DNA from: Pristiophorus japonicus
Lineage: Eukaryota
Direction of reading: 5' to 3'
DNA: 64,000 bases
Assembly (NCBI RefSeq): GCF_044704955.1
Contig: NC_091980.1
Span: 11,222,001-11,286,000, forward strand
This document shows, one piece after another, positions 3,901 to 61,519 of the stretch. The position numbers were made by a program, and so were the translations under genes. The notes under the pieces are model-generated. The model did no database searches. It saw only the letters and a list, made by a program, of their open reading frames with translations, and was not told the origin of the DNA. Positions within the stretch are counted from its first letter, which is position 1. Every line of letters starts with the position of its first letter.

Positions 3901-3925
3901 TATCTTTTATCATTTTAAAGACCTC

Positions 3926-20950: not shown

Positions 20951-22017
20951 GAGGATAGTCTTCTTGCATTTGCTGGTTACTTTCAATGAATCGTCATTAA
21001 TCACAACTAAATCTGTTTTGTTTTTATTTTTGAATCCCTGCATGCCTGTTTAATATTTCCTTTGGCAATACGCATAGCTTACATAGCAGGTGAAAAATAT
21101 AACCTAACACTTATATTTCTGGTTAAGGCAAAAAAACAAACCTATTCAAATTTTTCCCTTTTTCTAAATGTTATTTTTTTTAATGTTAATGATACATTCA
21201 AAATATAAAGGACAATGCTCATAACGCCCTCTGTAATGGACTAAATAAAACATCCTGCAGTGTCTCTCAATGCACTTGCTCAATGTCTTAATGCGCACAA
21301 GCGTGTCGTACTGGGCGCAAACAAATTAATTGTATTTTCTGAATGCCTTTTGGGCCATTTTAACAGTTACAAAAGTCGATCAAGAAAAGCGCGGTGTGAA
21401 ATAAATAGGAAAAAGACGTTGATATCTTTACAGCTAATTATTCCACATTCAGTTCGTCACGCAAACGCTTTCGTTATGCAGGGAGAGAAGTGCCAGAATG
21501 AAGAGCAGGACATTGCAACATGGGGTAGGAAGGTATGATATTTTTCCATTTGTGTCAGTCGATTAGCAATAAGCTCGTATCTGGTTTGGTATTTTGGTGT
21601 TTACGCTCCCCTTGAAATGCTGAACAGCGGAAGTCTTCACCAATACGCTTACGATATTGTTACGCAAAGCGACCCGACCAATTCCAAAGCAAAATAATTG
21701 GGACAGTATTTTATGACTGAGGATATCTGAGATAGGCAGCAGAAGATAACTGAGATAGGCAGTTGCCGAGATGTTCATTTGCTGTTCATGGCCGCCTCTA
21801 GATTGCATCATGCAAGTCAGGAAATAATGGTTAATTAAACGGGAACATAATCTGGCATGGATCTGGTGCGGAAGATATTATGCGAAAATCAGCAGTCCCG
21901 ACTAAGTAGCAAACATTATACTGCTTGTAAAAATTAGCTACACAATTCCATATGTGTATGGAGATATTGGTCGCATAATTTTAAATAGAAATCATTCCAG
22001 CTTTAAGGAACACTTGG

Positions 22018-22059
22018 TGCAGTTATTGGTTGTGACTCTCTGTGTCGCTGTCGACCAAT
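22018..22059 (+). promoter_or_regulatory. Protocadherin promoter CSE (CGCT box, candidate CTCF site), gene 1
   Basis: TGCAGTTATTGGTTGTGACTCTCTGTGTCGCTGTCGACCAAT about 250 nt upstream of the ATG. Resembles the clustered-Pcdh conserved sequence element and recurs before all three exons. Confidence 0.8.
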
Positions 22060-22307: not shown

Positions 22308-24701
22308 ATGGCGAACACAATCAGCAGCGGGGCGTCTTTCATTTTCCTGCTCTGTGTGTCGAACTTGGTTTCGGGACAGATTCGCTACTCGATTCCCGAG
22401 GAGCTGGAGCACGGGGCCTTTGTGGGGAATATCGCTGAGGATTTAAGACTAAATGTTTGGGAATTATCGGCCCGTAAGTTCCGGCTGGCCTCTGATGAGA
22501 AGACGCATTACATGGAGGTAAATCTGGAGAATGGGATTTTATTTGTTAATGAAAGAATCGACCGAGAAGAGCTCTGTCGACAAAGCACCACCTGTTCCCT
22601 TTCTTTGCGAATTGCGATGGATAATCCTTTGGCGATGCATCGAGTTGTAGTGGAAATATTCGACGTAAATGATAATTCACCTAATTTTTTCCAGGACGAA
22701 TTTTCTCTGCAAATCAGTGAGTTAATTGCGCCGGGGTCGCGATTCCCCCTCGGGAGCGCGCACGACCCGGACGTGGGCACAAACACAATCAGCACTTATC
22801 AGATCAGTCCAAACGAGTACTTCGGTCTTAAAGTGCAAACGAGAAATGATGGGAGTAAAAGTGCGGAGCTGTTATTAGAGAATACCTTGGACCGAGAACA
22901 ACAGTCAACATTTGATCTTGTACTGACGGCCATTGACGGTGGGATTCCCCACAGATCTGGCATAGCTCGGATTATCATTGCTGTGGTGGATGTCAATGAT
23001 AACGCACCTATATTCGATCACGAAATATACAGGGCGACAGTAGCAGAGAACGCCGCTAAAGGTACGTTAGTTACCAAAATCAACGCTGCTGATTTGGATG
23101 AAGGCACGAACGCTGATCTAACATATTCTTTCGCCAATCACGTTTCATACAAGATTCGCGAAATTTTCAAATTGGAAATGGAAACTGGAGAGATCAGAGT
23201 TGAAGGAGTACTGGATTTTGAAGAATCAAGTGTTTATGAACTTGATGTACAAGCTGTGGACAATGGTCCAGCTAACATGACAGGGCACGCCAAAGTTATG
23301 GTCGCAATAATTGATGTTAATGACAATTTCCCCGTGGTAGAGGTGACTTCGGTAACCAGCAGGGTCGCCGAAGATGCAATACCTGGGACAGTAATAGCTG
23401 TCATCAGTGTCACAGATTTAGATTCGGGGGAAAATGGGCAGGTACAGTGTCAAGTTCCTGGAGTTGTTCCATTCAAACTTCAAAAATCTTCAAGGAATGA
23501 GTATCAATTGGTAACACGCGATATTCTCAATCGGGAAAATGCCCCGCTCTACAACATCTCTATTTCAGCCTGGGATGGCGGGTCACCCCCTCTTTCAACA
23601 AGTAAAACTATCTTGCTTTCAGTTTCTGATGTGAATGACAACGCACCTACGTTCACACAATCCTCATATAACGTTTATCTGATGGAGAACAACACTCCAG
23701 GTGCTTCTATATTTGCTGTTACCGCTTTAGATCTTGATTTGGACCAGAATGCTGACCTTGTCTATTCTATTCCGGAAAATCTGTTACAAGGGCTACCTGG
23801 TTATGCATACGTCACGATTAACTCCAGAAATGGTAACATTTACGCGCTGCGCTCCTTTGACTATGAGCAAGTGAAACATTTCCAGATCAAAGTTCAAGCC
23901 CAGGATGCTGGCTCTCCCCCACTGAGCAGCATCGCCACCGTGAATGTTATTATCTTGGACCAAAATGACAATGCTCCGGTTATTGTTTCACCTTTAACGT
24001 GGAACAGTTCAGCATCAGTGGAGATTGTGCCTCAGTCTGTGTATCGAGGATACCTGCTCATCAAGGTAATCGCCGCTGATGCTGATTCCGGTCAGAACGC
24101 ACGGCTTTCCTACCAACTGTTGGAGGCCACTGATCCCAGTCTGTTTACTGTGGGGCTTCTATCTGGGGAAATCAGAGCAACTCGACGATTTAGGGACCAA
24201 GACATCATCGCAGAAAGACTGGTCCTCTGTGTGAAGGACAATGGCCAGCCGAGTTTCTCCAGTACCGTCACAATCTCCTTTTCAATCGTCTCCAATGTTA
24301 CTGAAAAATCGTCTGAGCGAAGCGACGAACCCTTTCATTCGGAGGATTTTAATGATCTAAATCGTTATTTAATCATCATTTTAGGATCAACTTCGTTTTT
24401 GTTTCTTGTAACTATCATATTTCTGGTCGTCTTGAAATGTAAACAAGATAGAAATATTGCTGAAGGTAACAGCTGCACAATCTTTTGCTGCCGACGGAGG
24501 AATTCGAAAGCCCCCTCTTATCGGACACCTGCTCCAAACCAACCATTTAATTATACCGGGCCTGTTCAGACTGAAGAATACCAGTATACCGTGTGTTTAT
24601 CACCAGAATCATCCAAGAGCGATTTTCTGTTTCTGAAACCCTGTCATCCTACCTTGCCTTTCAATGAAGTGAGTGCGCGGGATACCAAAGCGATGGCATA
24701 A
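22308..24701 (+). CDS. Clustered protocadherin variable exon 1 (signal peptide, EC1-EC6, TM, variable cytoplasmic part); spliced exon probably ends at 24668
   Basis: 797-aa ORF: QIRYSIPEE start of EC1, EC1 Cys-x5-Cys (CRQSTTC), repeated DxNDN/LDRE/DxD motifs, TM YLIIILGSTSFLFLVTIIFLVVL, tail YTVCLSPESSKSDFLFLKP. Subfamily cannot be assigned by eye. Confidence 0.97.
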   Translation: MANTISSGASFIFLLCVSNLVSGQIRYSIPEELEHGAFVGNIAEDLRLNVWELSARKFRLASDEKTHYMEVNLENGILFVNERIDREELCRQSTTCSLSLRIAMDNPLAMHRVVVEIFDVNDNSPNFFQDEFSLQISELIAPGSRFPLGSAHDPDVGTNTISTYQISPNEYFGLKVQTRNDGSKSAELLLENTLDREQQSTFDLVLTAIDGGIPHRSGIARIIIAVVDVNDNAPIFDHEIYRATVAENAAKGTLVTKINAADLDEGTNADLTYSFANHVSYKIREIFKLEMETGEIRVEGVLDFEESSVYELDVQAVDNGPANMTGHAKVMVAIIDVNDNFPVVEVTSVTSRVAEDAIPGTVIAVISVTDLDSGENGQVQCQVPGVVPFKLQKSSRNEYQLVTRDILNRENAPLYNISISAWDGGSPPLSTSKTILLSVSDVNDNAPTFTQSSYNVYLMENNTPGASIFAVTALDLDLDQNADLVYSIPENLLQGLPGYAYVTINSRNGNIYALRSFDYEQVKHFQIKVQAQDAGSPPLSSIATVNVIILDQNDNAPVIVSPLTWNSSASVEIVPQSVYRGYLLIKVIAADADSGQNARLSYQLLEATDPSLFTVGLLSGEIRATRRFRDQDIIAERLVLCVKDNGQPSFSSTVTISFSIVSNVTEKSSERSDEPFHSEDFNDLNRYLIIILGSTSFLFLVTIIFLVVLKCKQDRNIAEGNSCTIFCCRRRNSKAPSYRTPAPNQPFNYTGPVQTEEYQYTVCLSPESSKSDFLFLKPCHPTLPFNEVSARDTKAMA
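24669..24674 (+). promoter_or_regulatory. 5' splice donor of variable exon 1
   Basis: GAA|GTGAGT after codon 787 (phase 0); same position in all three exons. Confidence 0.8.
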
Positions 24702-25061
24702 CTTAGAAAGCAACTTTTATGCTGACAGGTAATTCACTCTGCTGAAGAGTTATATGCTATGTGATCAATTAGAAAGTAAGTTTTCTGCATTTGTCTCAAT
24801 CCTCACATTACTAGTAGAGGGCTTGATAGGGGAAATTTGCTTCATGTTGTTCCTATAAGGGGTGGTAAATATTTCTGCCGCTTTTCTGACAGACCTGAGT
24901 CGCTCACACCCAACTAACCTTAGCATGAAACCTGGCTTCTAATTGTTTCAATTTCTGCTTTGCTGAAGCACATAATGAACATGTCGTTTCTCTCTGCGCT
25001 GCTGTGTTAGTGTTGTATCGCATGTGTATTTTACTGGTTATATCTTAAGACATATATATAT

Positions 25062-25662
25062 GGCCCAGAAATTGCGGTCAGAGACTTCCTACCGGCGAGC
25101 TCCTCCGACAAAATTTTTTTAAACCAAAGTACTTGGTGGTCCGGAGGAAAGTGGACATGCCACATCTGGGCTCACATATTCGAGGTGCATACGTGCAGCC
25201 TCGGATCACGTGGGCCGTATGAACAAATGAAAATGGCGTTTCCACATTCACAGTGAAGGTGAGTTCTATTTGTACGGAGATACCTTTTCTGTGAATAGGA
25301 ATACCCTGAAAGAGACAAATATTTTAAATAAATAAGAAAAACACTTCACATATTTAAAATTACCTTGATTTGAATTTAAAAAATATTTTAGCCTTTTTTT
25401 AACATGTTTCTTTGAGGTAAAAATAATCTTACCTTAATGGACTGGGTTTTTAACATAAAAATTATTGCTAACATTTTATGTTTCTATCTCTTAACACAAA
25501 TGCCCTTCTTCAGGTTTCAACAAAAGAAACTTTGACAGCTCGCAAATGTTGGTTCTCGGCCCATGCGTATCGTGCACCAAGAACTGAGAACCAGCACTTC
25601 CGGGGTCTCTTTAGATGCATGCACACATCATACGTACCCGGAGAGGCCGCAATTTACAGGCC
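25062..25662. mobile_element. Harbinger-type MITE
   Basis: TIRs GGCCCAGAAATTGCGG / CCGCAATTTACAGGCC; 3-bp TSD TAT; AT-rich core. Confidence 0.82.
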
Positions 25663-25773
25663 TATAATTTCAAGACCTGGGGCGCTTTTTTCAATGACTG
25701 TAATGTTCCATAGGACTAAAAACTTAATTTCAAGTACTTAAGTATTTAAGTACTGCATATTTTCCACAACAAT

Positions 25774-26460
25774 GGGCGAGAAGTTGCTGCCGGAGGCTTC
25801 CCGCCGGCGGATGTCTCTGACCGAAACATTTTTGCAGTCACGGAGGAAGACAAACTTCGGCTCCAAGGCCTATATGCGCACCCTAGTGCAGAGGCCCATG
25901 AATTCCAGGAGCGTATGGGCATCCTGGGACCACTCATGTTTAGACCACCAATGAACATGGAATATCCTCATTGATCGCAGTGGTGAGGTCCGTTAGTTCG
26001 GAGCTCCCATTAATATCAATGAGAATATGAATCCAAAACAGAGAAACGCATACATAATTAATAAAACAAACCTCAGATATTTAAAGTTAATTGAAATTGA
26101 ATTAAATTAAACGTTTTAGAACAAAATTATTTTTTTTGAATTTTTTTGTAATATGTTTTAATAGGGTTAAAATAAACTTAACTTAATGGAGAGTGTTTTA
26201 AACGTAAAAATTAGTAGTAATTTGCTTTTACCAGGCTTAAGACATTTAAGGACATTTGCTGGGCATGATTTAGGCAAATAGTCCAAATCACCGTCCGTGA
26301 AGGCCCTTCTCCAGAGGATGTGCGCGATCTGTCAATGGAAAATTTGAAAGATCACAGGTTTAGGCGCATATGCTTTGTGTGCCTAAGCTCGGAACTTGTG
26401 CGGCCTTTTCGGGCATGTGCGCACATCGCACAAAGCCAGAAGGGCCGCAATTTATGGCCC
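25774..26460. mobile_element. Harbinger-type MITE (related to the previous one)
   Basis: Ends GGGCGAGAAGTTGC / GCCGCAATTTATGGCCC; 3-bp TSD AAT (25771-25773, 26461-26463). Confidence 0.8.
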
Positions 26461-27950
26461 AATGCAATCATTCAATCAAATTTTTGAAATTCAACTAATT
26501 TTCAGATTTGCTTCTGACTTTCCATAATACACAGGGTTGTTGGTGAAGTAATCTAGTTTATAATAAATTGGGTAACCGCGATTCGCAAAAATGTTCACTG
26601 TGAATAACTGCAGCTTTGGTTACTCTGTCGTTGATACCGTGATAGATATTCTCAATGCTAAATGTGTCACAATTTCGTGTCACATCTTGTGTCATGCATG
26701 CTAGCTACTGTTTTATAAAGAGAGTATACAAACCTCTGATCATACAATCCAGTCACTGCGTTCTTGCACACAATTCAATATGCTTATCTAAATGCTTTTG
26801 TTTGCCATTTTCCCCAGCAACTAATGTTCCTAATGTTTAAAATATGTAATTAAAATAAATAAAATCTAAACAATTGCACAGTTCACAACAATATGATTAA
26901 GAATGTGGACTGAAAGATCCAATTATGACCTCATGAAGTTTTCATTAGAAAGCCGTAATCCGTCCTGTTCTGGGCCCTGATAGTTTTGCATACAGCTGTG
27001 ATTCGCTGAACGGAATTTGGATTGTGCAGTCAGATCGAACGAATCACTTCTGCAGAAATTAGGAGAGCTGTGTCACAGCCAATTAAGAAACTCAGAGAAG
27101 CATAACTTTCAGCCAACGTCTCAAACTCCTTCATCACTACGGCTCAGTGGCATTACCGTTGCGAGGGAGTCCTCAAAATTGACTCCAGACCCCAAGAAAT
27201 CTCATGTCATCAGGTCAAACATGAGCAAGGAAACCTCCTACTGACTACCACTTACCACCCTTACCAGATGAATTGTTACTCGTCCACATTGGACATCGCT
27301 TGGAAGAAACACTGAGGGCAGCAAGGGCACAGAATGTACTCTGGGAGCGTGACTTCAATGTTCATCACCTAGAGTGTTTTGGTTGTAGTATTACTGACCA
27401 AGCTGGCCTAGTTTGGAAGGTTATATCTGCCAGACGAGGAATGCGGCAGATGGTAAGAGAACCAACACGAGGGAGAAAATGACTTGACCTCATCTACACC
27501 CATTTATCTGATGCAGATGCATCTGTACATGACAGCATTTGCTGGAGTGAGCATCCTTGTGGAGACGAAGTTCCACCTTCACCCTCCAATGCGTTGTGTA
27601 GCACTACGACCATGTAAAATGGAATGGATTCAGAACAGACCTAGCAGCTCAAAACAGAGCAATCATGAGACGCTTTGTGCTATTAGTATTCTACCACAAT
27701 CTGTAACCTCATAGCTACGTTATTGCAAGATACAACCCAGCGCACTGGATACAGCAAAGGCTATGGGCCCTGAAGACATCCTGCTGTCATGCTGCAGACC
27801 CATGCTCCTGTACTTGCCATGCATTTAACCAAGCTGTTCAAGTACAGTGATAACACTGGTATCTACACAAAAAATGATAAATTACCCAGATATATCTTTT
27901 CATCAAGAAACAGGACAAATCCAATCCAATCAATTATCACCTCATCAGCC

Positions 27951-30900
27951 AATAAAAAAAGAATGCATTTATATAGTGTCTTTCACAAAAACCGAACGTC
28001 TCAAAGCGCTTTACTCTCAATGAAGTACTTCTGGAGTGTAGTCACTGCTGTAATGTGGGAATCCCTTACAGACTCCCACAATGATTTTAACTATCCTAAT
28101 ATTGATTGAGACAAAATAGTGTGAAGGGTATAGAGGGTGCGAAATTTTTCAAAATGCATTCAAGAGAACTTTTTTTAGTCAGTATGTAACAAACCCAACA
28201 CAAGAGGCGGCGGCTTCAGAGTTAGTTTTGGGAAATGAAGCTAGGTAGTTTGAAGCAGTATGATTGGGCGAGCACTTGGGTGCCAGTGACCATAATTCAG
28301 TCAGATTCAAGTTAGTTAAGGATAAGGACAAGGATAAGCCTGGAAATAAAGTTCCAAATTGGGGAAAAACTAACTTTGCTAAGTTGAGGAGTGATTTAGC
28401 CAAATTGGACATGAAACAGTTACGTTTGGGTAAATCACTGTCGGAACAGTTGGAGCCATTCAAGGGGGAGTTCCGGAAGGCACAGGCCAAACATGTGCCC
28501 TTAAAGAAAAAGGGTGGGAATAACAATTGTTGAGCCCCTGCATGTCTAGGGGCTTACAGGGGACAATAAAGAAGAAGAAAAAGGAAGCTTATGTCATATA
28601 CCGATGGCTAAATATGATAGAATCTTTGGCGGAATACAGAAAGTTAAGAGCTAAAATTAAAATTAAAAAGGATATTAGGAATGCAAAGAGAGAGCATGAA
28701 AAATTCTTGGCTAGTAAAATTAAGGACAACCTAATGGTGTTATCTAAATATATTAAGAGCAAGAGGGTAACTATAAATGGATTGGGCTTATTAGAAACCA
28801 TGAGGGTATTTTTTGTGGAGACGGAAAATGTTGGGATGGTTCTTAATGAATACATTGCATCTGTTTCCAGAAAGGAAAGTGGCAAGGCAGATACTGCTAT
28901 CGAAAAGGACTGTGACATTCTGGATGAAATAAACATAGTGACAGAGGATGTATTAAGGGGTTTAGCAGCTATGAAAGTAGATAAGTCCCCAGGCCCGGAT
29001 GCAATGCTTTGCAGGTTGTTGAGCGAAGTAAAAGACAAAATAGCTGAGACTTTGACCATCATTTTCGAGTCCTCTTTGGATTCGGGAATGCTAATGTGAT
29101 CCCCTTGCTTAAGGAGTGAGAAAGGGATAGGTCAAGTAATTACAGGCCTGTCAGTCTAGCCTCAGTTGTGGGAAAATTATTGGAAAAAACTCATGGAAGA
29201 CAGGAGAAAATCTACAGTTATTAAGGCAAGGATTAAGTTGGGGCAGACAGCATGGATTTGTTAAGGGAAGATCATGCTTGACTATCATGATTGAAATTTT
29301 TGAGGAGGTAACTAAGAGGATCGATCAGGGTAGTGCATACGATGCACTGTATATGGACTTTAGCAAAGCGTTTGATAAGATCCCACATGCTGGACTGGTC
29401 ACGAAGGTTAAAGCCCTTGGAATCCAGGGCGAAGTGGCTAGTTGGATCCAAAATTGATTTAAAGGTAGGACGCAAAGAGTAATGGCTGATGGATGTTTTT
29501 GTGACTGGAATGATGTTTCCAGTGATTTCCACAGGCTCAGTACTGGGCCACTTGTTGTTTCTGGTATAAATGATTTAGATTTGAATATAGGGAGTATGAT
29601 TAAGAAGTTTGCAGATGACACTAAAATTGGCTGTGTGGTTGATAATGAAGGGGAAAGTCATGGACTGCAGGAGCATAACAATCAACTGCTTAGGTGGGCA
29701 GAGCAGTGGCAAAAGGAATTTAATTCCTTGAAGTGTAAGGTAATGCACATTGGGAGGGCTAATATTGAAAGGATATATACATTAAGCAGCGGTAGGCCAC
29801 TTAATAGTGCAGATGAATAAAGGAACATTGGAGTGCTTGTTCATATATCGCTGAAAGTAGCAGGTCAGCTGGACTAGGTGGTTAAGAAGGCATACGGAAT
29901 GCTTGCCTTTATTGGCCGAGGCATAGAAAACAAGAGCAAGGAAGTTATGCTTAAATTGTATAATACTCTTGTAAGGCCACAGTTGGAGTACTGCATGTAG
30001 CTCTGGTCGCCGTATTATAGGATAGATGTGACTGTACAACAGATGGTGCAGGGGATATTTACTAGGATGCTGCTTGGAATGGAGAATCTTCGCCATGAAG
30101 ACAGGTTGGATAGGCTGGCTCTCCGCATTTGAACAGAGAAGGTTCAAAGGAGCCCTCATTGAGGTGCCTGGATATAGTGGATAGCAAGTGCTTATTTTCA
30201 TTGGTGGAGGGGTCACTTACGAGGGGCATAGTTTTAAGGTAGCTGGTAGAAGGTTCAGAGGGGATTGAGGGCGTGCTTCTTCACGCAGAGGGTTGTGGGG
30301 GTCTGGAACTCACTCACTGGAACGGTGGTAGATGCAGAAATCCTCACTACCTGCAGGGTTACACACCTGGAGCTGGAAGTTGAGATTAGACTGGATAACC
30401 TCTGTTGGCCAGCGCAGTTATGATGGCAAGTACTGCAGGGAATTGAATACGGCCACGGTGATCTCCTCACCAATTTCAATCACCCAGATGGGTCGGAGAG
30501 GAACTTTCTAAGATTTCCTTCTCCAATTGCCCTGGGTTTTTATCTGGTTTTTGGCTCTCCCAGGAGATCACATGGCTCCGGTTGGGGGTGGAGCATATAA
30601 TGTTTCATTATAAGAGGTGTCGCAGTGTGGGACGGATTGGTTGAGCTGGGTGCTCTTTACCTTTCCCCATTGTTCATTTTTCATAGGTTTATATTTAACC
30701 CTCAGGGCTGCTGACCGAGGTCCGTGTGGCTCTTTTTCAGCTGGCACGGGCATGATCAGTTTAATTGGCCTCCTTCTGCACTGTAAATTTACATGTTTCT
30801 ATAATAACCAGATCATCTGCTTTGGTTATGCTGATTGAGGGATAACTCCCATGCTATTCTTCGAAAGGTGTTACGGGATATTTTGCACCAACCTCAGAGG

Positions 30901-31078
30901 ACAGACTCATCCAACATGTCTCATCCAAAAGACAGCACCTCCGACAGTGCAGCAGCCCCTCAGCATGGCACTGGAGTGTAAGCCTTGAATAATCATATGC
31001 TCCAGTTACTGGAGTGGGACTTGAACTCACAACCGCTAATGCAGAGGCGAGTGTGCTACCCACTGAGCCACAGCTGAA
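27951..31078 (-). mobile_element. DeuSINE split by a CR1 (tail ~27958-28072, head ~30800-31078)
   Basis: Reverse complement of the 6534-7000 SINE tail and head; flanked by CAGCC repeats in the family-B host. Confidence 0.78.
28075..30800 (+). mobile_element. CR1 LINE 'A' (decayed ORF2, long 3' UTR)
   Basis: ORFs 28264..28533, 28527..29099 and 29482..29820 (KFADD); tail ...TTTACATGTTTCTA. Confidence 0.88.
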
Positions 31079-50977: not shown

Positions 50978-51590
50978 TCATCATCATCATAGGCAGTCCC
51001 TCGAAGTGACTTGCTTCCACGCCAAAAACGGATGACTTCATAGGTATTTCAATGAAGGACCTAATATTCCAGATCCCAAACTACATCATGAAAGTGGAAG
51101 ATGCCTTTGCTTGGATTTTTCTAACGTGTGGTGGTCGGTGCCTCGAGGATGCTCTTCCCCACAAGTGAATCATTCTCTCTGTGCCAGCCACCGCATGGGC
51201 TTGATAGAGCTAGGTCTTTGTCCAGTGGCAAGGTTTACCCAAGACTAACTGGAGACCAGCTCTGCTGGACACACCGAGCGCGCAAACATTTTGCAAGTGT
51301 GGGCTGGCCCGTGCTGCCCCTGGACCCTCGTTTCTTCTGCGTCCCAGATTTACGCCTCTCGTGGGCCGGGACCATTGGGGGGAGCAGCGTGCGGTGGCCC
51401 GGCCCAGAAATCGGCGCAGTCCCGGCCTGCAAGACCATCAGCAGGCCAGGGCCATTGGAGGGAGGAATGTGCTTCGGCATACCACTGCAGGGAGCAGCGG
51501 GTGCTGCTGCAGGAGGGTGATGGCTATGAAGCCAGGTCACTGATTGCAGTGCGGGCAGGCACAACAGGAGGGGCGAAGAGCGGCAAGATT
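50978..51590 (-). mobile_element. RTE-derived retroposon (paralog of 33512-34114)
   Basis: Colinear and highly similar; (ATG)n tail. Confidence 0.8.
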
Positions 51591-53704
51591 CATCTTCTCA
51601 AGGGCAATTAAGGATCGGCAATAAATGCTGGCGTTGCCAGCGACGCCCACATCCCATGAATGAACAAAAACAACGTTTCCAACTGTGGAAAGTTCAAATC
51701 TTTTTGTTTAATTTTAGAATGTCAAAGATTAAGTGAGCTTCTGTGAAATGCCTCACAATGGTGCTCATAGAACTAAATTCCAACTTAGGGCAGAGACGAA
51801 ACCGAATTTTGACTCAACGAGAACAATTCTGGCAACAAACAGAAACGGAACGAACTGGTACAGAGAAAAATTCGGAGTCCACTAAAGCGATTCCCTGTTG
51901 AATAACGGCAAAGCAAATTGATATATGACTAGAAAATATATTATGGAAGAATGCAAGAATATGATTCATATGTGTTACCTGAGATTGTTTTCATATGTCT
52001 ATGGTTGATTGTTGGCAGATGCCAAGTAGGCTGTGAAATCCTGACAAATGCATGGTCTAAACGATGACAACTAATGCATGACAATCCCATTTAGGAGACC
52101 GACCTCAATGGCATTCCCTGTGCGCTAGCCATTGCCTCCACTTTAAATAGAACACATCATCAGATCTTTACAGAAATGATGAACACCAACGCCGTGGCTA
52201 AGGCCATAGAAGTCGTGTGTTGTGTTGGGAATTTCAGTCTGATTGGAAACTTCACTTCGAGAAAGTCTCCTTATTCCTAAACAACTGGTGACCGATGACT
52301 TAGCTCTCGAAAAGTTACTAATGTATGCCTTTGAAATTAATGGAAATAGAAATCGAGTGAGATGAAAAACGGACTGCCGGCTCGCTATTATCCGTTTTAC
52401 ACGATCGCACAAAGTCAACAATTACCCCATGATATACCGCAATGTAGGCAGTTCACACACTTCAGCATGAGAACCATTCCACTGCTATTATACTCAAACA
52501 TGTAGATAAGTGAGGTATTCAGGATCTACAGAAGACTGAAATTTAGCTTTTGTTAAAAATATTGCAAGGAATTGAAATCTACTACTCTGGGTTGTTGTCA
52601 TTGCAACAATTTAGTGTTTGTTCTTCGCCGTTGTCCGAGAACTTGTTTAGTTTGTTAACATTCGCTGGTTGCTTTCAGCGAATGGTGAAAAGGCATAACG
52701 AAATCTTTTTTATTTGCTTTCACATCTGCTTTGAATATTTCGATCAGCAATTTGTATTACTATATATTTTTCATAGCCAGAGAAAAAATGTAGCATACCA
52801 CTTAGCCCTCTGGTCAATGGACAAAGCCCACCATCACAATCTTTTCTGTTTTGATCAATATTTTTCGAAAGTTGGTAAAATATACGTAAGTCACCAGCGT
52901 AATACTTATGCCGCACGTTGCAATGGACCGAATAAAACACCGAATATAGTCTTTCAATTGGCATGTAAAAAATGTCCTTTGCGCACAATCGCGTCATATT
53001 CGATGTAACTAATGAAATGTATTGTTTTGGCCTTGGATCAGTTTTACAGTTAAAATTCAAGCCTATTGCAAAGTGAAATAAATACTTTAAAACGCTGGTA
53101 TCTTCACTAATGATTGATCCATATTCAGTTCGTCAGTCAAAAGCTTTCGGTAGGTCGGAAGAGAGATACTAGAATGACGAGTTGGGCACCGTGACACGAG
53201 CGAGGAGTGTGGGGGAAGTTGATCGGGTTGATCTGCAGATTAGCGACAAGCAAGTGTCTAATTTGGCATTTTGCTGTTTACGATGCGCCTGAAATGCTAA
53301 TCAGCTGAACTCTTCATCAATGCGTTTAGTGTATGGCTGCACATAGCGACCCGACGAATTCCCAGCTCCAGTGATTGGGGCAGCATTGTAAGACTGAAGA
53401 TAAGCGATATAGGCAGCAGACCGATGCTGCTGCTCGGCGGTGCAGCCATTCATCTATTATACGATGCGCTTCATAGTTTGACTCTTTAAATAGGAAAATA
53501 CATCTGGTACCGATCCGCTGCTGCTGCAATGTACATAATTATGGGGAAGATCAGTATTTCGAATGCATAGCAAAATGTATACTAATTTTAAAAATGAACC
53601 ACATTATTCGATGTGTATCTGAAAATTTCAGTTGCATAATCTTAAATGTAGTGGTCTGTTGTATTACAATATCGAAACAGTGCAGCTTTAAGAAACACGT
53701 TTGG

Positions 53705-53746
53705 TGCAGTTATTGGTTGAGACTCTTTGTGGCGCTGTCTACCAAT
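53705..53746 (+). promoter_or_regulatory. Protocadherin promoter CSE, gene 3
   Basis: 42 nt identical to the gene 2 CSE. Confidence 0.8.
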
Positions 53747-54010
53747 TAGAAGCTGAGACGCTGACAGAGATCTACCCCCTCCCCCATCAGGGAAACACAG
53801 ACTGAAGCGAAGAGAAAGAGAGAGGGACAGCGAGATGCTGTGTCTGCGTTTACGTTGTGCGGCCATGTTCAACAATACAGTTCAGGTTTAATATTTGAAC
53901 TTCTCGATTTAATATCGGCGATCGAATTATATGTGGCTCAATATTGCAGATAATGTAAACGATTTGCGGAGATCGCCATATTTTTACATTAACATCCAGC
54001 AGTCAGAACA

Positions 54011-56404
54011 ATGGCGAGTGTGCTGATGAACGGGGCGTCTTTCATTTTCCTGCTCTGTGTGTCGGACCTGGTTTCGGGACAGATTCGCTACTCGATTCCC
54101 GAGGAGCTGGAGCACGGGGCCTTTGTGGGGAATATCGCTGAGGATTTAAGATTAAACGTTTGGGAATTATCGGCCCGTAAGTTCCGGCTGGTCTCTGGTG
54201 AGAAGAAGCAATACATGGAGGTAAATCTGGAGAATGGGATTTTATTTGTTAATGAAAGAATCGACCGAGAACTGCTCTGCAGACAAAGCTCCACCTGTTC
54301 CCTGTCTTTGCAAGTTGCGCTGGACAATCCTTTGGCGATGCATCGAGTTGTAGTGGAAATATTAGATGTTAATGATAATTCACCGAATTTTTCCCAGGAT
54401 GAATTTTCTCTACACATCAGTGAGAGCAATGCGCCGGGGGCGCGCTTCCATCTTGAGAGCGCACACGACCGGGACGTGGGCACAAACACAATCAGCACTT
54501 ATCAGATCAGTCCAAACGAGCACTTCGGTATTAAAGTGCAAATCAGAAAAGATGGGAGTAAAAGTGCGGAGCTGTTATTAGAGAATACCTTGGACCGTGA
54601 AGAACAGTCAACATTTGATCTTGTACTGACGGCCATTGACGGTGGGATTCCCCACAGATCTGGCACAGCTCGCATTATCATTGCTGTGCTGGACGTCAAT
54701 GACAACGCACCTATATTTAATCACGAAATATACAGGGCGACAGTAGCAGAGAACGCCGCTAAAGGTACTTTAGTTACCAAAATCAACGCTGCTGATTTGG
54801 ATGAAGGCACGAACGCTGATCTAACATATTCTTTCACCAATCATGTTTCACACATGATTCGCGAATTGTTCAAATTGGAAGCGGAAACTGGAGAGATCAG
54901 AGTTGAAGGAAGACTGGATTTTGAAGAATCAAGTGTTTATGAACTTGATGTACAAGCTGTGGACAATGCTTTACCTGCATTGGCAGGACACGCCAAAGTT
55001 ATTGTAGCATTAATTGACGTTAATGATAATTTCCCCGTGGTAGAGGTGACGTCGGTATCCAGCTCGGTCTCTGAAGATTGCGTGCCCGGGACGGTAATAG
55101 CCGTCATTAGTGTCAAAGATTTAGATTCAGGGAAAAATGGACAGGTACAGTGTCAAATTCTCGGGGTTGTTCCATTCAAACTTCAAAAATCTTCAAGGAA
55201 TGAGTATCAATTGGTAACACGCGATATTCTAGATAGGGAAAAAGCCCCACTCTACAACATTTCTATTTCAGCCTGGGACGGCGGGACTCCCCCTCTTTCA
55301 AAAAGTAAAACTATCGTAGTTTCAGTTTCTGATATCAACGACAACGCACCGAGGTTCACGCAATCCTCATATAACGTGTTTCTGATGGAAAATAATAAGC
55401 CAGGTGCTTCTATATTTGCTGTTACCGCTTTAGATATTGATTTGGATCAGAATGGTGACCTTGTCTATTCTATTCCGGAAAATCAGTTACAAGTGGTACC
55501 TGGGTCTGCATACTTCACGATTAACTCCAAAAATGGGAACATTTACGCGCTGCGCTCCTTTGATTATGAACAACTGAAACATTTCCAGATCAAAGTTCAA
55601 GCCCAGGATGCTGGCTCACCCCCACTGAGCAGCATCGCCACCGTGAATGTTATTATCTTGGACCAAAATGACAATGCTCCGGTTATTGTTTCACCTTTAA
55701 CGTGGAACAGTTCAGCATCAGTGGAGATTGTGCCTCAGTCTGTCTATCCAGGATACCTGCTCATCAAGGTAATCGCCGCTGATGCTGATTCCGGTCAGAA
55801 CGCACGGCTTTCCTACCAACTGTTGGAGGCCACTGATCCCAGTCTGTTTACTGTGGGGCTTCTCTCTGGGGATATCAGAGCAACTCGACGATTTAGGCAC
55901 CAAGACATTATTATAGAAAGACTGATCCTCTGTGTGAAGGACAATGGACAACCGAGTCTCTCCAGTACGGCCACAATCTCCTTTTCAATCATTTCCAATG
56001 TTACTGAAAAATCGTCTGAGCGAAGCGACGAACTCTTTCATTCGGAGGATTTTAATTATCTAAATCGTTATTTAATCATTATTTTAGGATCAACTTCGTT
56101 GTTGTTTCTTGTAACTATCATATTTCTGGTCGTCTTGAAGTGTAAACAAGACGGAAATATTGCTGAAGGTGACAGCTGCACAGTCTTTTGTTGCCGACGG
56201 AGGAATTCGAATGCTCCTTCTTATCGGGCATCTGCTCCAAACCAACCATTTAATTATTCCGGTCCTGCCCAGACTGAAGAGTACCGGTATACCGTGTGTT
56301 TATCACCAGAATCATCCAAGAGCGATTTTCTGTTTCTAAAACCCTGTCATCCTACCTTGCCTTTCAATGAAGTGAGTGCACGCGATACCAAAGCGTTGGC
56401 TTAA
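54011..56404 (+). CDS. Clustered protocadherin variable exon 3; spliced exon probably ends at 56371
   Basis: 797-aa ORF colinear with exons 1 and 2. Confidence 0.97.
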   Translation: MASVLMNGASFIFLLCVSDLVSGQIRYSIPEELEHGAFVGNIAEDLRLNVWELSARKFRLVSGEKKQYMEVNLENGILFVNERIDRELLCRQSSTCSLSLQVALDNPLAMHRVVVEILDVNDNSPNFSQDEFSLHISESNAPGARFHLESAHDRDVGTNTISTYQISPNEHFGIKVQIRKDGSKSAELLLENTLDREEQSTFDLVLTAIDGGIPHRSGTARIIIAVLDVNDNAPIFNHEIYRATVAENAAKGTLVTKINAADLDEGTNADLTYSFTNHVSHMIRELFKLEAETGEIRVEGRLDFEESSVYELDVQAVDNALPALAGHAKVIVALIDVNDNFPVVEVTSVSSSVSEDCVPGTVIAVISVKDLDSGKNGQVQCQILGVVPFKLQKSSRNEYQLVTRDILDREKAPLYNISISAWDGGTPPLSKSKTIVVSVSDINDNAPRFTQSSYNVFLMENNKPGASIFAVTALDIDLDQNGDLVYSIPENQLQVVPGSAYFTINSKNGNIYALRSFDYEQLKHFQIKVQAQDAGSPPLSSIATVNVIILDQNDNAPVIVSPLTWNSSASVEIVPQSVYPGYLLIKVIAADADSGQNARLSYQLLEATDPSLFTVGLLSGDIRATRRFRHQDIIIERLILCVKDNGQPSLSSTATISFSIISNVTEKSSERSDELFHSEDFNYLNRYLIIILGSTSLLFLVTIIFLVVLKCKQDGNIAEGDSCTVFCCRRRNSNAPSYRASAPNQPFNYSGPAQTEEYRYTVCLSPESSKSDFLFLKPCHPTLPFNEVSARDTKALA
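56372..56377 (+). promoter_or_regulatory. 5' splice donor of variable exon 3
   Basis: GAA|GTGAGT after codon 787. Confidence 0.8.
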
Positions 56405-59400
56405 TTAGACAGCAACTTTTATGCTGACAGCTAATTCACTCTGCTGAAGAGTTATGTTATGTGATCAATTGGAAAGTAATTTTTGTGTATTTGTGTCAAT
56501 CCTCACACTGCTTGTAGAGGGCTTGATATGGTAAATTTGCTTCATGTCGTTCCTATATGTGGTGGTAAATATTCCTGCCGCTTTCTGACAGACCTGTGTA
56601 GCACACACCCAACCAACCTTAGCATGAAACCTGGCTTCTAATTGTTTCAATTTCTGCTTTGCTGAAGCACATAATCAACATGTCATTTCTCTCTGCGCTG
56701 CTGAGTTGGTGCTGTATCGCATGAGTATTTTATTGATTACCTCACAGCTATGTTATTGCAAGATACAACCGAGTGCACTGGATATGGAAATGGCTGTGGG
56801 CTCTGAAAATATCCTGCTGCCATGTTGCAAACGCATGCTGCTGAAATAGCCACGCATTCAGCCAAACTGTTCAAGTACAGCGACACCACTCTCATCTACA
56901 CAAAAAATGAAAAACTGCCCAGGTTGTCTTTTCAACAAAAAACAGGACAGATCCAATCTAATCAATTATCACCCCATCAGTCGAGAAAGAAAGACATGGA
57001 TTTTTATAGCACCTTTCACAAACACCGGATGTCTCAAAGTGCTTTACTGCCAAAGAGGTACTTCTGGAGTGTAGTCACTGCTGTAATGTGGGAAACTTTC
57101 AGAGACTCCCACGAGGAGCAAAGGGGATTTTAACTGTCCTAATATTGATTGGGACAAATGTAGTGTGAGGGTTATAGAGGGGGCGGAATTCATAAAATGC
57201 ATTCAAGAGGACTTTTTTAGTCAATATGTAACTAGCCCAACACTAGAGGGTGCGATTTTGTATTTAGTTTTGGGGGGCAGGTTGAAGGAATATTATTGGT
57301 AGAGCACTTGGGTGCCAGTGACCATAATTCAGTCAGATTCAAGTTAATTGTGGATAAGGGCAAGGATAGTCATCGAATGAAAGTCCCAAATTGGGGAAAC
57401 GCTAACTTTGCTAAATTGAGGAGTGATTTGGCCACAGTGGTCTGGAAACAGCTACTTTTGGTTAATTCAGTGTAGGAACAATGGGAGCCATTCAAGGAGG
57501 AATTCCAGAAGGCTTAAGCCAAATATGTGTCCTTAAAGAAAAAGGGTGGGAATAACAATTGTTGAAACCCCTGCATGTCTAGGGACTTACAGTGGATGAT
57601 AAAGAAATAAAGCAAGCTTATGTCATTTTCCGATGGCTAAATATGGTAGAATCTTTGGCGGAATATAGAAAGTTAAGAGGTAACATTAAAAAGGATATTC
57701 GGAATGCTACGAGAGAGCATGAAAAATTCTTGGCTAGTAAAATTAAGGACAACGCAAAGATGTACTAAAAATGCATTAAGACCAAGTGGGTAATTATGAA
57801 AGGGTAGGGCCTATTAGAGACCATGTGGGTAATCTTTGTGTGGAGGCGGAAGATGATGGTATGGTTCTTAATGAATACTTTGCATCTGTTTTCACAAAGG
57901 AAAGCGGTAATGCAGATACTGCTATCGAAAGGAGTGCAAAATTCTGGATGAAATAACCATAGTGAGGCAGCAGTTATTAAGCGGTTTAGCAGCTATGAAA
58001 GCAGATAAGTCGCCAGGCCCGGATGAAATGCATCACCGGATACTGAGCGAAGTAAAAGACGAAATTGCTGTGGTTTTGACCATCATCTTCCAGTCCTCTT
58101 TGGAATTGGGTATGGTGCTGAGGACTGGAGGACCGCTAATGTGGTACCCTTGCTTAAGAAGGGAGAAAGGGATAGGTCAAGTAATTACAGGCCTGTCAGC
58201 CTAGCCTCAGTTGCAGGAAAATTATTGGAAAAAATCCTGAAAGACAGGGGAAAATCTACATTTGGAAAGGCAAGGATTAATTTGGGACAGTCAGCACGGA
58301 TTTGTTAAGGGAAGATCATGGTTGCCTAACCTGATTGCATTTTTGGAGGAGGTAACTATGAGGGTCGATGAGGGTAGTGCATATGATTTAGTATATATGG
58401 AATTTAGCAATGCTTTTGATAAGGTCCCACATGGTGGATTGGTCACAAACGTTAAAGCCCATGGGATCCAGGGCAAAGTGGCTAGTTGGATCCAAATTTT
58501 ATTTAGAGGTAGGAAGCAAAGGGTAATGTTTGATGTTTTTTTTGTGACTTGAAGGATGTTTCTAGTGCAGTTCCACAGGACTCAGTACTGGGCCCATTGC
58601 TTTTGCAGGTACATATCAATGATTTAGATTTGAAGATAGGGAGTATGATTAAGAAGATTGCAGATGACAAAAAATTGGCTGTGTGGTTGATAATAAATAG
58701 GAAAGTCATGCAATGCAGGAGCATACCAATGTAATGGTTATGTGGGCAGAGCAGTGGCAAAAGGAATTTACTTGGGAGAAGTATAATGTAATGTACATTG
58801 GGAGGGCTAATAAGGAAAGGATATACATATTAAGCAGTAGGCCACTTAATAGTGTAGATGTATAAAGACACCTTGAACTGTTTGTTCACAGAAAGTAGCA
58901 GGCCAATTGGATTAGGTGGTTAAGAAGGCATATGGAATGCTTGCTTTTATTGACCGATGCATAGAATACAAGAGCAGGGCAGTTATGCTTAAATTGTATA
59001 ATACTCTGGTTAGGCCACAGTTGGAGTACTGCATGCAATTCTGGTCACTGTATTATAGTATGGACGTCATTACACAAAGGAGGATATTTACTAGGATGGT
59101 GCCTGGAATGGAGAATATTCGCTATGATGACAGATTGTATAGGCTGCCTCTGTTCGCAAAGGAACAGAGGAAGTTGAGAGGAGACCTCATTGAGGTGTAC
59201 AGAATTTTGAGGGGCCTGGATATAGTGGATAGCAAGGGCCTATTTCCATTGGTGGAGGGGTAAGTTACGAGGGGGAATAGTCTTAAGGTGGTTGGTGAAA
59301 GGTTCTGAGTGGATTCGAGGGCGTGCTTCAGTACGCAGAGAGTTGTGGGCGTCTAGAATTCATTTCCTGGAAGGTTGGTGGATGCAGAAATCCTCACCAC

Positions 59401-61519
59401 CTGCAGGGTTGCAAACCTAGAGCTGTTAATTGGGATTAGACTGGATAACCTCTGTTTGCCAGCAAAGATACGATGGTAAGTATTGCAGGGAATTACATAC
59501 GGCCACGGTGATCTCCTCGACTAGCTTCGATCGCCTGGATGTGTCGGAGAGGAATTTTCCCAGATTTCGTAACCATTGCCCTGGGTTTTATCTGGTTTTT
59601 GCCTCTCGCAGGAGATCACATGGTTCCGGTTGCGGGGTTGATTGTAGATTGTTTCAGTATAAGGGGTGTCGCAGTTGTGTGGGGCAGACCGGTTGGGCTG
59701 GGTGTTCTTTACCTTTCTGCCATTGTTCATTGTTCAGAGGTTTATATGTAACCTTCAGGTTACTGCTGACCGAGGGCCGTGGAGCACTTTGTCGGCTGGT
59801 GCAGACATAATGAACCGGAATGGCCTCCTTCTGCGCTGTAAAATTCTATGTTTCTGTAATGACCAGATCATCTGCTTTTGTTATCCTGATTGAGGGATAA
59901 CTCCCCAGCTATTCTTAGAAATAGTGCCACGGGATATTTTACATAAACCTCAGAGGACAGATGCGGCCTCAGTTTAACATCTCATCCAAAAGCCTCCACC
60001 TCAGACAGTGCAGCAATCCCTCAGCACTGCATTGGACTGTCTGCCTAGATTGTTTATATGCTCAAGTTACTGGAGTTGGACTTGAACCCACAACCGCTGA
60101 TGCAGACGCGAATGTGCGACCCACTGAGTCACAGTTGAATCAACCTGCACTTAAGATTCAGAAAAGTGATGGCAGGGGTCGTCGACAGTGCTATCAAGTG
60201 GCACGTACTCACCAATAACCTGCTCAATGTTGCTCAGTTTGGTTTCTGACTTCCAGAGGTGAGGAGAGAGGAACTGCCCTTGACATCAAGGTAGCACTTG
60301 ACCGAGTGTGGCCTCAAAGAACCGCAGAAAATTTGAAGTCAGTCTTACTTTGGTGGAAGCCTCTCTGCTGGGTGGAGTAATACTTGGCACAAAGAAGATG
60401 TTTGCAGTTGTTGCGGGCCATTCGTCTTATTCTCAGGACATTGGAACAGGAGTTCCTGATGGCAGTGTCATGGGCCCAACCATATTCAGCTGGCCCATCA
60501 ATGATGTTTCTGGCAACATAAATTCAGAAGTGGGGATGTTCACTGATGATTGCACAGTTTTCACTTCCAGCCGCAAAGCTTCAGCAAATGATGTAGTCTT
60601 TGCCTGCATGCAGTAAAACCTGGACAGCATTAAGACTTGTGCTGTCAAGTGGCAAGCAACATTTGTGGCACTCAAGTGCCAGGCAATGTTTCTCTCCAAC
60701 AAGAGGGAGTCTACCCACTTACCCTTGACATTCAACGGCATAACCATAGTCAAATCCACGACCATCAACATCCTTGGATCACCACTGACGGGAATCTTAA
60801 CTGGAACAATCACTTCATAATGTGGCTACAAGAGAAGGCCAGAGGCTTGGAATTCTGCAGTGAGTGACTGTCTTCTTTAGTCCCGAACGCCTTTCCACCA
60901 TCAACAAGGCACATATCAGGATATGATGAAATATTCTCCAATTGCATGCATGTGTGCAGCTCCAACAATATTGAAGAATCTCCCTCCCATCTAGGAATAA
61001 GCACCCCACTTGATTGGCACTCCATCCACCAGCTTGAACGTTCACTTCCTCCACCACCAGTGCACCGTGGCTGCAAGACCATCTACATGATTCGTGCCAG
61101 CAACTCACCAAGGCTTCTTTGACACCACCTCCAAACCTGCGACCTCTACCATCGAGGTGGATAAGGGCATCAAGCGGAGAGGAACAAACATAGAATTGAA
61201 AAGTAGGGAAGTTATGTTATACCAATATAGAAACTTGGTTGGGCCACACGTACAGTTCTGGTTGCCATATTATAGAAAATACATAGAGGCAGTGGAGAGG
61301 TTGCAGAGAAGATTTCCAAGGATGATACCAGAGACGCGAGGGTATCCATATCAGGAAAGGATGAACAGGCTAGGTCTCTTTTCTCTTGAAAAAGAAGGTG
61401 GAGGGGTGACCGAATATAGGTGGTTAAAATTTTGAAAGGTTTTGGAGTGGGACATTGCGCCCTTCAGGAATTAAGGGCTTAACAATGCAAGTTGCACACT
61501 AGCAGCAGATGATGAGACA
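56405..61519 (+). repeat. Intergenic spacer copy C (more diverged, partial): family-B LINE > DeuSINE > CR1 'A' (~57100-59858)
   Basis: Same nested TE order; lacks the spacer-A segment ~25040-27705 and the short CR1 3' insertion. Confidence 0.9.

What the first reader, a model, noticed from the sequence alone, without database searches (positions are those of the whole stretch)
21350..61519. Protocadherin array expanding by duplication of whole promoter-exon-transposon cassettes
Seen: three 797-codon exons with identical architecture, each followed by the same nested TE stack (family-B LINE > DeuSINE > CR1 A), at a 14.2 and 17.5 kb period. Known: clustered Pcdh variable exons give neurons stochastic identity codes. 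Inference: this is a lineage-specific expansion in which the mostly TE-derived spacer is part of the duplicated unit. The TEs therefore date and order the duplications. A fourth exon is predicted downstream of spacer C.
Basis: partly seen in the sequence, partly recalled or inferred. Interest (0 to 1): 0.7.

Follow-up and report, generated by a model that had tools for sequence, protein, structure and literature searches.

The report
Shark protocadherin triplet from unequal crossovers
Three intact shark cell-adhesion genes sit in repeated blocks together with their transposon-filled spacers, and two of them carry the next gene's promoter on the previous gene's body, likely because two old misaligned crossovers copied the blocks, which is an ordinary way for such gene arrays to grow.

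Summary
Real, but ordinary in kind. Three intact 797-codon protocadherin exons (A, B, C) repeat at 14.2 and 17.5 kb with homologous, mostly repeat-derived spacers. The predicted fourth exon (D) lies 18.5 kb after C, behind a homologous spacer. Spacers differ by 11-16% and carry private insertions, so they are not haplotypes. A/B/C form a lineage-specific clade (100/99) among shark epsilon-type genes.
(1) They look like single-exon epsilon genes, not spliced variable exons; the nearest constant-exon-like hit is 1.33 Mb away.
(2) The first copied unit starts inside the exon: B and C have D's promoter and signal peptide on an A-type body (switch at nt +57 to +139), so transposons are passengers.
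(3) The spacers are not identical: two insertions are shared by spacers A and B only, and three are private. They order the events, ((SA,SB),SC).
(4) They do not date the exons, which are mosaics (A and C alike in EC2-EC3).
The duplications are old. The scan noted a similar intra-exon chimera in another shark genome (e1-9935264). One oddity: only A/B/C among 17 epsilon-zone exons have an in-frame splice-donor motif.

The parts
22046..22049 (+). CGCT box of promoter A (conserved promoter element, 262 bp before the ATG)
   Evidence: motif described in PMC7811963 and PMC4978886 (passages)
22308..24701 (+). Exon A: intact 797-codon epsilon-type protocadherin with its own, divergent promoter
24669..24674 (+). 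In-frame splice-donor-like motif GAA|GTGAGT, 10 codons before the stop (same motif in B at 38907-38912 and C at 56372-56377); use unknown
24702..36545 (+). Spacer A (11.8 kb), including promoter B
28083..30803 (+). Old decayed LINE with endonuclease and RT remains, shared by all three spacers (ends approximate; CR1-type label is recalled)
30839..31076 (.).
31089..32312 (+). Second, more divergent LINE remnant shared by all three spacers; host of the A/B-only insertion
31845..32028 (+). 183-bp LINE 3' tail inserted in spacers A and B (49323-49507), absent from spacer C
33511..34115 (.). About 605-bp insertion in spacers A and B (50980-51590), absent from spacer C
36268..36271 (+). CGCT box of promoter B (D-type promoter)
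36546..38939 (+). Exon B: intact 797 codons; D-type promoter and signal peptide on an A-type body
36603..36685 (+). Interval holding the D-to-A switch in B (nt +57 to +139; same interval in C at 54068-54150): inferred crossover site of the first duplication
38940..54010 (+). Spacer B (15.1 kb), sister of spacer A, including promoter C
43801..47464 (+). Private 5'-truncated LINE in spacer B with an approximately 10-bp target-site duplication, inserted into the old LINE
53733..53736 (+). CGCT box of promoter C (D-type promoter)
54011..56404 (+). Exon C: intact 797 codons; D-type promoter and signal peptide on an A-type body
56405..64000 (+). Spacer C, outgroup to spacers A and B; continues past the window to window-scale 72471, followed by exon D (72472-74862)
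61520..64000 (+). Private near-full-length LINE in spacer C (esterase-like ORF1, endonuclease, RT; ends at about window-scale 65755); same family as the spacer-B insertion but at another site

Best explanation
Exons A, B and C are intact epsilon-type clustered protocadherin genes of a shark whose spacers are copies of one another, and B and C carry the promoter and signal peptide of downstream gene D on the body of upstream gene A, likely because two successive unequal crossovers in an ancestral A-spacer-D pair each copied one full period.

Step 1 (inferred; hybrid structure shown): the conserved 5' ends of A and D mispaired and crossed over between nt +57 and +139 of the coding sequence. This gave A - spacer - hybrid - spacer - D at about 0.16 substitutions per site.

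Step 2 (inferred; spacer sisterhood shown): after two more insertions had entered the first spacer, a second crossover duplicated that spacer and the hybrid promoter, at about 0.11, giving A-B-C-D. Its breakpoint is probably also within the exon but is not located.

Transposons rode along and kept inserting afterwards; they did not supply the located breakpoint. Later gene conversion (inferred) reshuffled exon tracts, making A and C alike in EC2-EC3 and B and C alike in EC4.

Each gene is predicted to be transcribed from its own CGCT-box promoter as a single-exon mRNA. By analogy with mammalian clustered protocadherins, each likely adds a distinct self-recognition isoform on neurons (untested).
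For: Hybrid structure: upstream of nt +57 to +139, B and C side with D at 234 of 273 diagnostic sites; downstream they side with A at 332 of 393 (chi-square 322; maximum 19 in 1000 shuffles). Promoter distances are pB-pC 0.075, pB/pC-pD 0.12-0.13, pA-others 0.36-0.38; 3' flank A/B/C 0.07-0.10 versus D 0.30. Whole-exon dS is 0.15-0.17 among A/B/C and 0.48-0.54 to D.

Order: K2P over 6.8 kb is SA-SB 0.114 +/- 0.004, SA-SC 0.164, SB-SC 0.159. C is the most frequent odd sequence in 17 of 18 400-column windows. Two insertions are shared by SA and SB only. Consistent internal clocks: the two private LINE copies differ by 0.113, and the terminal repeats of the C-only insertion by 0.17 +/- 0.03.

Mosaic exons: B is the odd one at 46 of 69 sites in codons 154-308 (0 of 300 shuffles; synonymous sites only 16 of 23, 4 of 1000). 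A is odd at 35 of 42 sites in codons 320-413 (0 of 300).

Selection: 0 gaps between the three ORFs versus about 14 frame-shifting indels expected from the SA-SB indel rate; dN/dS about 0.36-0.41.

Family: A/B/C clade 100/99, sister to Cetorhinus P0009 and Stegostoma P0032 (98/95), inside a 79-row clade with elephant-shark epsilon8/9/14 (FastTree 100). The stop sits at the same place, 26 residues from the DFLFL motif, in close relatives from many sharks and rays. Constant-exon-like hits on C4 only at 10.53, 12.62 and 13.48 Mb.
Against: The second crossover point was not located; B is closest to A in EC1, EC5 and EC6 but to C in EC4, TM and tail, so the two-step model needs added conversion tracts. 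The EC4 tract is not significant on synonymous sites alone (10 of 12; 71 of 1000 shuffles), so selection could contribute there. Per-domain dS rests on only about 70-85 sites. A/B/C have an in-frame donor-like motif that a pure single-exon model does not need. Heptranchias P0007 falls outside the A/B/C + galeomorph pair, against the species relationships I recall, so exact orthology is unsure. The mu-like constant-exon hit is weak by E-value (0.22). Expression and binding specificity were not shown.
Confidence: 0.85

Rival explanations
1. One reading: each gene was copied as its own promoter-exon-transposon cassette, and the transposon stack dates and orders the genes themselves.
For: Spacers are homologous and give a consistent order; the fourth exon was found as predicted.
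Against: Promoter, spacer, EC2-EC3 and EC4 give different genealogies. A's upstream region matches the other promoters over only about 1.1-1.4 kb at 67-68%, so A's promoter was never part of the copied unit.
Confidence: 0.05
2. A, B and C arose as plain triplicates of A including its promoter, and A's upstream region was replaced or B/C promoters were converted by D later; no intra-exon crossover.
For: Gene conversion is evident elsewhere in these exons. Signal peptides of the orthologues do not clearly mark an A or D type (P0020 and P0009 start alike).
Against: Spacers A, B and C are colinear homologues right up to D's ATG (70486-72471 matches 34561-36545 at 87.6%). One crossover explains spacer, promoter and body at once, while conversion would need a tract of many kilobases ending at the same point.
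Confidence: 0.07
3. Transposons drove the duplications by non-allelic recombination between repeat copies.
For: More than half of each spacer is repeat-derived, and related LINEs are abundant across the locus.
Against: The one located breakpoint is in coding sequence. No A/B-versus-C switch appears along 6.8 kb of aligned spacer.
Confidence: 0.02
4. The units are mis-assembled haplotypes or another assembly artefact.
For: No contig in the runs laid spans a whole unit, so contiguity rests on the assembly.
Against: 11-16% divergence and kilobase private insertions, against nucleotide diversity of 0.002 in another shark (PMC10587355, passage). Unique pieces of both spacer A and spacer B are matched by contigs of the same DNA runs with 0-1 differences over 290-1250 bp (one sample, possibly the assembly's own).
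Confidence: 0.01

Closest known systems
Elephant shark (Callorhinchus milii) protocadherin epsilon subcluster (UniRef names epsilon8, epsilon9, epsilon14; Yu et al. 2008, not held, seen only as cited in PMC2764143 and PMC4978886)
   Same: Same clade; 61-62% identity to B; same tail motif ending in a stop with no constant region; position between the first and second constant-exon-like hits of the cluster.
   Different: Here the zone spans about 1 Mb with long repeat-filled spacers, 21 of 37 tail hits without an intact frame, and an inverted block. Gene conversion was reported as limited in elephant shark (PMC2764143, passage), while A/B/C show clear tracts, including in EC2-EC3.
Mammalian Pcdh-beta cluster (single-exon clustered protocadherins; PMC7811963, passages)
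   Same: Tandem single-exon genes, each with a CGCT-box promoter, six EC domains, TM and a short tail; works-like model for A/B/C.
   Different: Not orthologous: epsilon has no orthologues in bony vertebrates according to PMC2764143 (passage); bony-vertebrate hits reach at most 50% identity.
Tandem duplication and copy-number change by unequal crossover in vertebrate Pcdh clusters (PMC4151104, passages; lineage-specific duplication, degeneration and conversion in PMC2764143, PMC1852091, PMC4978886, passages)
   Same: Same mechanism class: whole periods (exon, promoter, intergenic DNA) are gained; later conversion and loss.
   Different: Here a natural breakpoint is mapped to an 83-bp interval in the exon's 5' end, and the conversion tract falls in EC2-EC3, the region those papers describe as least converted.
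Anti-Lepore-type hybrid genes
   Same: Hybrid with the 5' end of the downstream gene and the 3' part of the upstream gene, lying between both intact parents.
   Different: Here the D-derived part is only promoter plus signal peptide, so the mature protein is A-type, and the hybrid was itself duplicated again.

Membership tests
Vertebrate clustered protocadherin | One large exon encoding signal peptide, six EC domains, TM and short cytoplasmic part | tested here: met
   best solved-structure matches are PCDH10 and clustered Pcdhs
Vertebrate clustered protocadherin | Tandem array of paralogous exons at one locus | tested here: met
   56 of 57 hits lie on C4:10.49-13.40 Mb (a lower bound)
Vertebrate clustered protocadherin | Own promoter with a CGCT box about 200-300 bp upstream of the ATG | tested here: met
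   at -262, -278, -278, -281 for A, B, C, D; CTCF binding itself not tested
Vertebrate clustered protocadherin | Stochastic expression in single neurons and isoform-specific homophilic binding | not testable with these tools
   EC1-EC4 identity among A/B/C is 84-87% (55-69 differences), which only makes distinct specificity plausible
Cartilaginous-fish epsilon subcluster | Groups with elephant-shark epsilon genes, apart from the other subclusters | tested here: met
   79-row clade with epsilon8/9/14, FastTree support 100; no named elephant-shark delta, mu or nu proteins were in the tree
Cartilaginous-fish epsilon subcluster | Lies between the delta and mu subclusters | tested here: met
   constant-exon-3-like hits at C4:10.53, 12.62 and 13.48 Mb; the names delta, mu, nu are inferred from order, not from named sequences
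Cartilaginous-fish epsilon subcluster | No constant exons (single-exon genes) | tested here: inconclusive
   For: conserved stop position; no constant-exon hit in 10.94-12.2 Mb; PMC2764143 lists constant exons for alpha, gamma, delta, mu, nu only. Against: in-frame donor-like motif in A/B/C. That epsilon lacks constant exons is partly recalled, as Yu 2008 was not held.
Spliced variable exons (alpha, gamma, mu, nu type) | Phase-0 splice donor about 104-140 codons after the TM segment, followed by non-conserved read-through | tested here: not met
   36 of 37 exons in the 12.15-13.41 Mb zone have such a donor; A/B/C stop 90-91 codons after the TM, at a conserved position
Spliced variable exons (alpha, gamma, mu, nu type) | Own set of constant exons directly downstream of the subcluster | tested here: not met
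   nearest hit 1.33 Mb beyond the window, behind 9 exons of another clade; only the third constant exon was searched
   No repeat library. Rfam found nothing at E<=1 in 24700-36500. A dispersed 240-bp repeat is present; the label fits my recall only.
   Lipase_GDSL_2 (below cut-off), Exo_endo_phos_2, RVT_1; 8-bp tail repeats; the clade name is recalled

The most novel reading that the evidence does not exclude
The ancestor of A, B and C gained, by one substitution, an in-frame splice donor identical to those of two downstream mu-type exons. These normally tail-less epsilon genes could then splice across more than 1 Mb and an inverted block onto the mu-like constant exons. That would be a single-exon clustered protocadherin acquiring a signalling tail, the reverse of the proposed origin of Pcdh-beta, then amplified together with a borrowed promoter.
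Probability: 0.07. Interest if true: 0.62.

Novelty: new member of a known kind. Interest (0 to 1): 0.3.

Why it matters
Modest. It is a clean natural example of how a clustered-protocadherin array gains members. The crossover site is the conserved start of EC1, so a new gene gets its promoter from one neighbour and its recognition domains from the other. It also warns against the proposed use of the locus: spacer transposons order the crossovers, but the EC2-EC3 surface has its own history through conversion, so neither spacer nor EC2-EC3 trees alone give the gene tree. Shark clusters beyond the elephant shark appear little described: searches listed no paper devoted to one, but the library lacks most subscription journals and Yu 2008. 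An annotated cluster of 56 or more genes with an inversion and about 20 decayed copies is useful comparative data rather than new biology.

Tried and rejected
RNA evidence: no RNA holder was listed, so expression and splicing are untested.

Contig depth: unique cassette pieces were not lower than unique flank pieces (X1: 8-16 versus 5-11; X3: 9-21 versus 11-21; X4: 5-9 versus 4-9). The tool states this is no copy number and the runs are one sample, so I do not rely on it.

Absolute dating with the epaulette-shark pedigree rate (7e-10 per site per generation, PMC10587355 passage) gives about 8e7 and 1.2e8 generations. At several years per generation that exceeds the age of modern sharks (recalled), so I rejected it as not transferable.

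Rfam: nothing in the window at gathering thresholds or in spacer A at E<=1. Five ORFs of the 3.4-kb insertion in spacer C and one decayed LINE ORF matched no Pfam family (6 of 10 proteins).

Yu et al. 2008 and Noonan et al. 2004 were not held; no supplements were read.

No bony-vertebrate sequences were put in the trees: most such hits were fused predictions, and all were at most 50% identical. No separate EC2-EC3 tree was built, because one search shows that region is itself converted. Structure and complex prediction were not run, as they would not resolve isoform specificity.

The donor motif as evidence of splicing was down-weighted. It is one event, a single AAT-to-AGT change relative to D. 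My rough chance estimate is about 0.04 such in-frame hexamers per tail, and the downstream stop is conserved across sharks.
Full report
1. Observation. The window holds three long + strand ORFs, A 22308-24701, B 36546-38939 and C 54011-56404, each 797 codons from ATG to stop and alignable without a gap. Each has a signal peptide, six cadherin domains, a TM segment and a Cadherin_C_2 tail. The periods are 14,238 and 17,465 bp. A self-comparison shows colinear homology through the spacers at 77-90%. At least 53%, 65% and 58% of spacers A, B and C match dispersed repeats in a 455-kb local library. The window is G000:C4:11222001-11286000 in a 5.9-Gb genome; a search with A gave 57 scored hits, 56 of them on C4:10.49-13.40 Mb. 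All 11 proteins that their source labels Pristiophorus japonicus are 100% identical to exons of this locus, so the organism is a sawshark by that label. The predicted fourth exon D exists at window-scale 72472-74862, 18,461 bp after C. Spacer C stays homologous to spacers A and B up to D's ATG.

2. The spacers are related but not identical. Shared by all three are an old LINE with endonuclease and RT remains (about 28083-30803 in A), a 240-bp SINE-like repeat (30839-31076) and a second LINE remnant (from 31089); these lie side by side. Spacers A and B share a 183-bp LINE tail and a roughly 605-bp insertion that are absent from C. B has a private 3.66-kb LINE with a target-site duplication. C has a private 4.2-kb LINE of the same family at another site, and a 3.4-kb insertion with terminal repeats. 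Over 6.8 kb of three-way alignment, K2P is 0.114 +/- 0.004 for SA-SB, 0.164 for SA-SC and 0.159 for SB-SC. Insertions and distances agree on ((SA,SB),SC). The two private LINEs differ by 0.113 and the terminal repeats by 0.17 +/- 0.03, consistent with insertion after the respective duplications. The labels family B, DeuSINE and CR1 A could not be tested; Rfam gave nothing.

3. Not an assembly artefact. Divergence of 11-16% with kilobase private insertions is about 50 times the nucleotide diversity of 0.002 reported for another shark (PMC10587355, passages). Contigs from three DNA runs of one sample match unique pieces of both spacer A and spacer B with 0-1 differences. That sample may be the assembly's own and no contig spans a unit, so this is weak support only.

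4. Where the unit begins. Promoters of B, C and D are close (0.075-0.126) and far from A's (0.36-0.38). The 3' flanks of A, B and C are close (0.07-0.10) and far from D's (0.30). Exon dS is 0.15-0.17 among A/B/C and 0.48-0.54 to D, but the signal peptides of B, C and D are identical in protein. Across promoter, exon and flank, B and C side with D at 234 of 273 diagnostic sites up to nt +57 and with A at 332 of 393 from nt +139 (chi-square 322; largest of 1000 shuffles 19). One unequal crossover between A and D in this conserved stretch explains the extra spacer, the D-type promoter and the A-type body together (inference). A second crossover then duplicated the first spacer and the hybrid promoter. 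Its breakpoint is upstream of the informative spacer and was not located. The located breakpoint is in coding DNA, so the transposons are passengers. An earlier unchecked note (e1-9935264) reports a similar intra-exon hybrid in another shark genome; I reached this result before reading it and did not test its locus.

5. The exons are mosaics. Among 259 sites where two of A/B/C agree, B is the odd one at 46 of 69 in codons 154-308 (0 of 300 shuffles; synonymous only 16 of 23, 4 of 1000). A is the odd one at 35 of 42 in codons 320-413 (0 of 300; synonymous only 10 of 12, 71 of 1000, not significant). Spacer, promoter, EC2-EC3 and EC4 therefore give different groupings, and the transposon clock does not date the recognition domains. 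Gene conversion is the likely cause. Papers describe EC2-EC3 as the least converted part (PMC4978886, PMC1852091, PMC2764143; passages), so this tract is atypical. An unchecked note on the upstream pair reports similar EC2-EC3 sharing (e1-9883764; not tested here). All three ORFs are under constraint: no gaps against about 14 frame-shifting indels expected from the spacer rate, and dN/dS of 0.36-0.41. EC1-EC4 differ at 55-69 residues between pairs.

6. Family. A FastTree of 119 ectodomains used 57 own exons and 62 cartilaginous-fish proteins. Left out were own-species duplicates, fused or partial predictions, unnamed rows and all bony vertebrates. It puts the 17 long-ORF exons of C4:11.19-12.12 Mb in one clade with elephant-shark epsilon8, 9 and 14 (support 100). 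IQ-TREE on 35 of these rows gives A/B/C 100/99, sister to Cetorhinus P0009 and Stegostoma P0032 (98/95), and D with Heterodontus and Mobula proteins (98/92). A and D thus split before the shark radiation, while A/B/C is lineage-specific and many-to-one. Path lengths (A-C 0.13, A-B 0.15, A-Cetorhinus 0.29) place the triplication at roughly half the depth of that split. With a recalled split of about 200-300 million years this is on the order of 100 million years, a crude inference. The promoters have the CGCT box at -262 to -281.

7. Single-exon or spliced. Third-constant-exon-like hits on C4 lie at 10.53, 12.62 and 13.48 Mb (translations; the 12.62 hit is weak, E 0.22). None lies in the epsilon zone, and the nearest is 1.33 Mb past the window. 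This matches the delta-epsilon-mu-nu order in PMC2764143 (passages and section 5), which lists constant exons for alpha, gamma, delta, mu and nu only; the names are assigned here by order. In the 12.15-13.41 Mb zone 36 of 37 exons have a phase-0 donor before their stop; in the epsilon zone 3 of 17 do, and these are A, B and C. Their stop, however, lies at a position conserved in close relatives from many sharks and rays, and none of the 120 proteins matches a constant exon (many are automatic predictions). I read the genes as single-exon, Pcdh-beta-like, and keep the donor as a low-probability lead.

8. Context. In C4:11.19-12.15 Mb, 37 places match the epsilon tail, 16 in intact frames and 21 not, with a minus-strand run at 11.43-11.60 Mb. 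A second triplet, G/I/K, has duplicated spacers of similar age. This is birth-and-death evolution rather than one-way expansion.

9. Comparison and verdict. Tandem duplication by unequal crossover, lineage-specific expansion, degeneration and conversion are all described for vertebrate Pcdh clusters (PMC4151104, PMC2764143, PMC1852091, PMC4978886, PMC7811963; passages read, plus one section of PMC2764143; PMC2926608 passages for the CGCT element in elephant shark). Searches listed no paper mapping a natural intra-exon crossover in a Pcdh cluster, but Yu 2008 and Noonan 2004 were not held and supplements were not read, so this is not proof of novelty. The finding is a new member of a known kind: real, well resolved, with a neat promoter-swap detail. 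Interest 0.30.

Noticed in passing
G000:C4:11.43-11.60 Mb: Six of seven protocadherin tail hits in this stretch are on the minus strand, suggesting an inversion inside the cluster. One (C4:11597970-11600357) is an intact 795-codon gene with its own CGCT promoter, which fits single-exon function.
   Followed up: partly
G000:C4:11.19-12.15 Mb: Of 37 places matching the epsilon tail, 16 lie in intact long frames and 21 in short or stop-containing frames; between 11.38 and 12.03 Mb only one intact exon was found. Only two of the 21 were looked at.
   Followed up: partly
G000:C4:11319826, 11349855, 11373073 (L008, L011, L013): A second lineage-specific triplet (G, I, K; 100/100) with duplicated spacers at K about 0.15 and broken exon copies between them: the same process, of similar age.
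   Followed up: partly
G000:C4:10937735 (L023): An exon upstream of the epsilon zone has a typical phase-0 donor, yet no constant-exon-like hit was found before 12.6 Mb, 1.7 Mb away. It either has undetected constant exons or splices across the whole epsilon zone.
   Followed up: no
L005:3029-6400 (window-scale 67029-70400): 3.4-kb insertion private to spacer C with 235-bp terminal direct repeats (K 0.17 +/- 0.03), LTR-like; five internal ORFs had no Pfam match.
   Followed up: partly
window 23268-23387 (exon A codons 321-360): A differs from B and C at 25-26 of 120 nt while B and C differ at 4; the tract may have come from a more distant paralogue, donor not identified.
   Followed up: partly
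window 46374-46741: A roughly 367-bp secondary insertion interrupts the private LINE of spacer B.
   Followed up: no
window 728-2322 and 2329-3905: Two head-to-tail LINE 3' parts, 84% identical, upstream of the array.
   Followed up: no
tree, P0013 and P0015, P0013/14/15/21: Proteins labelled Heptranchias perlo form their own four-gene clade, so other sharks have independent epsilon expansions.
   Followed up: no
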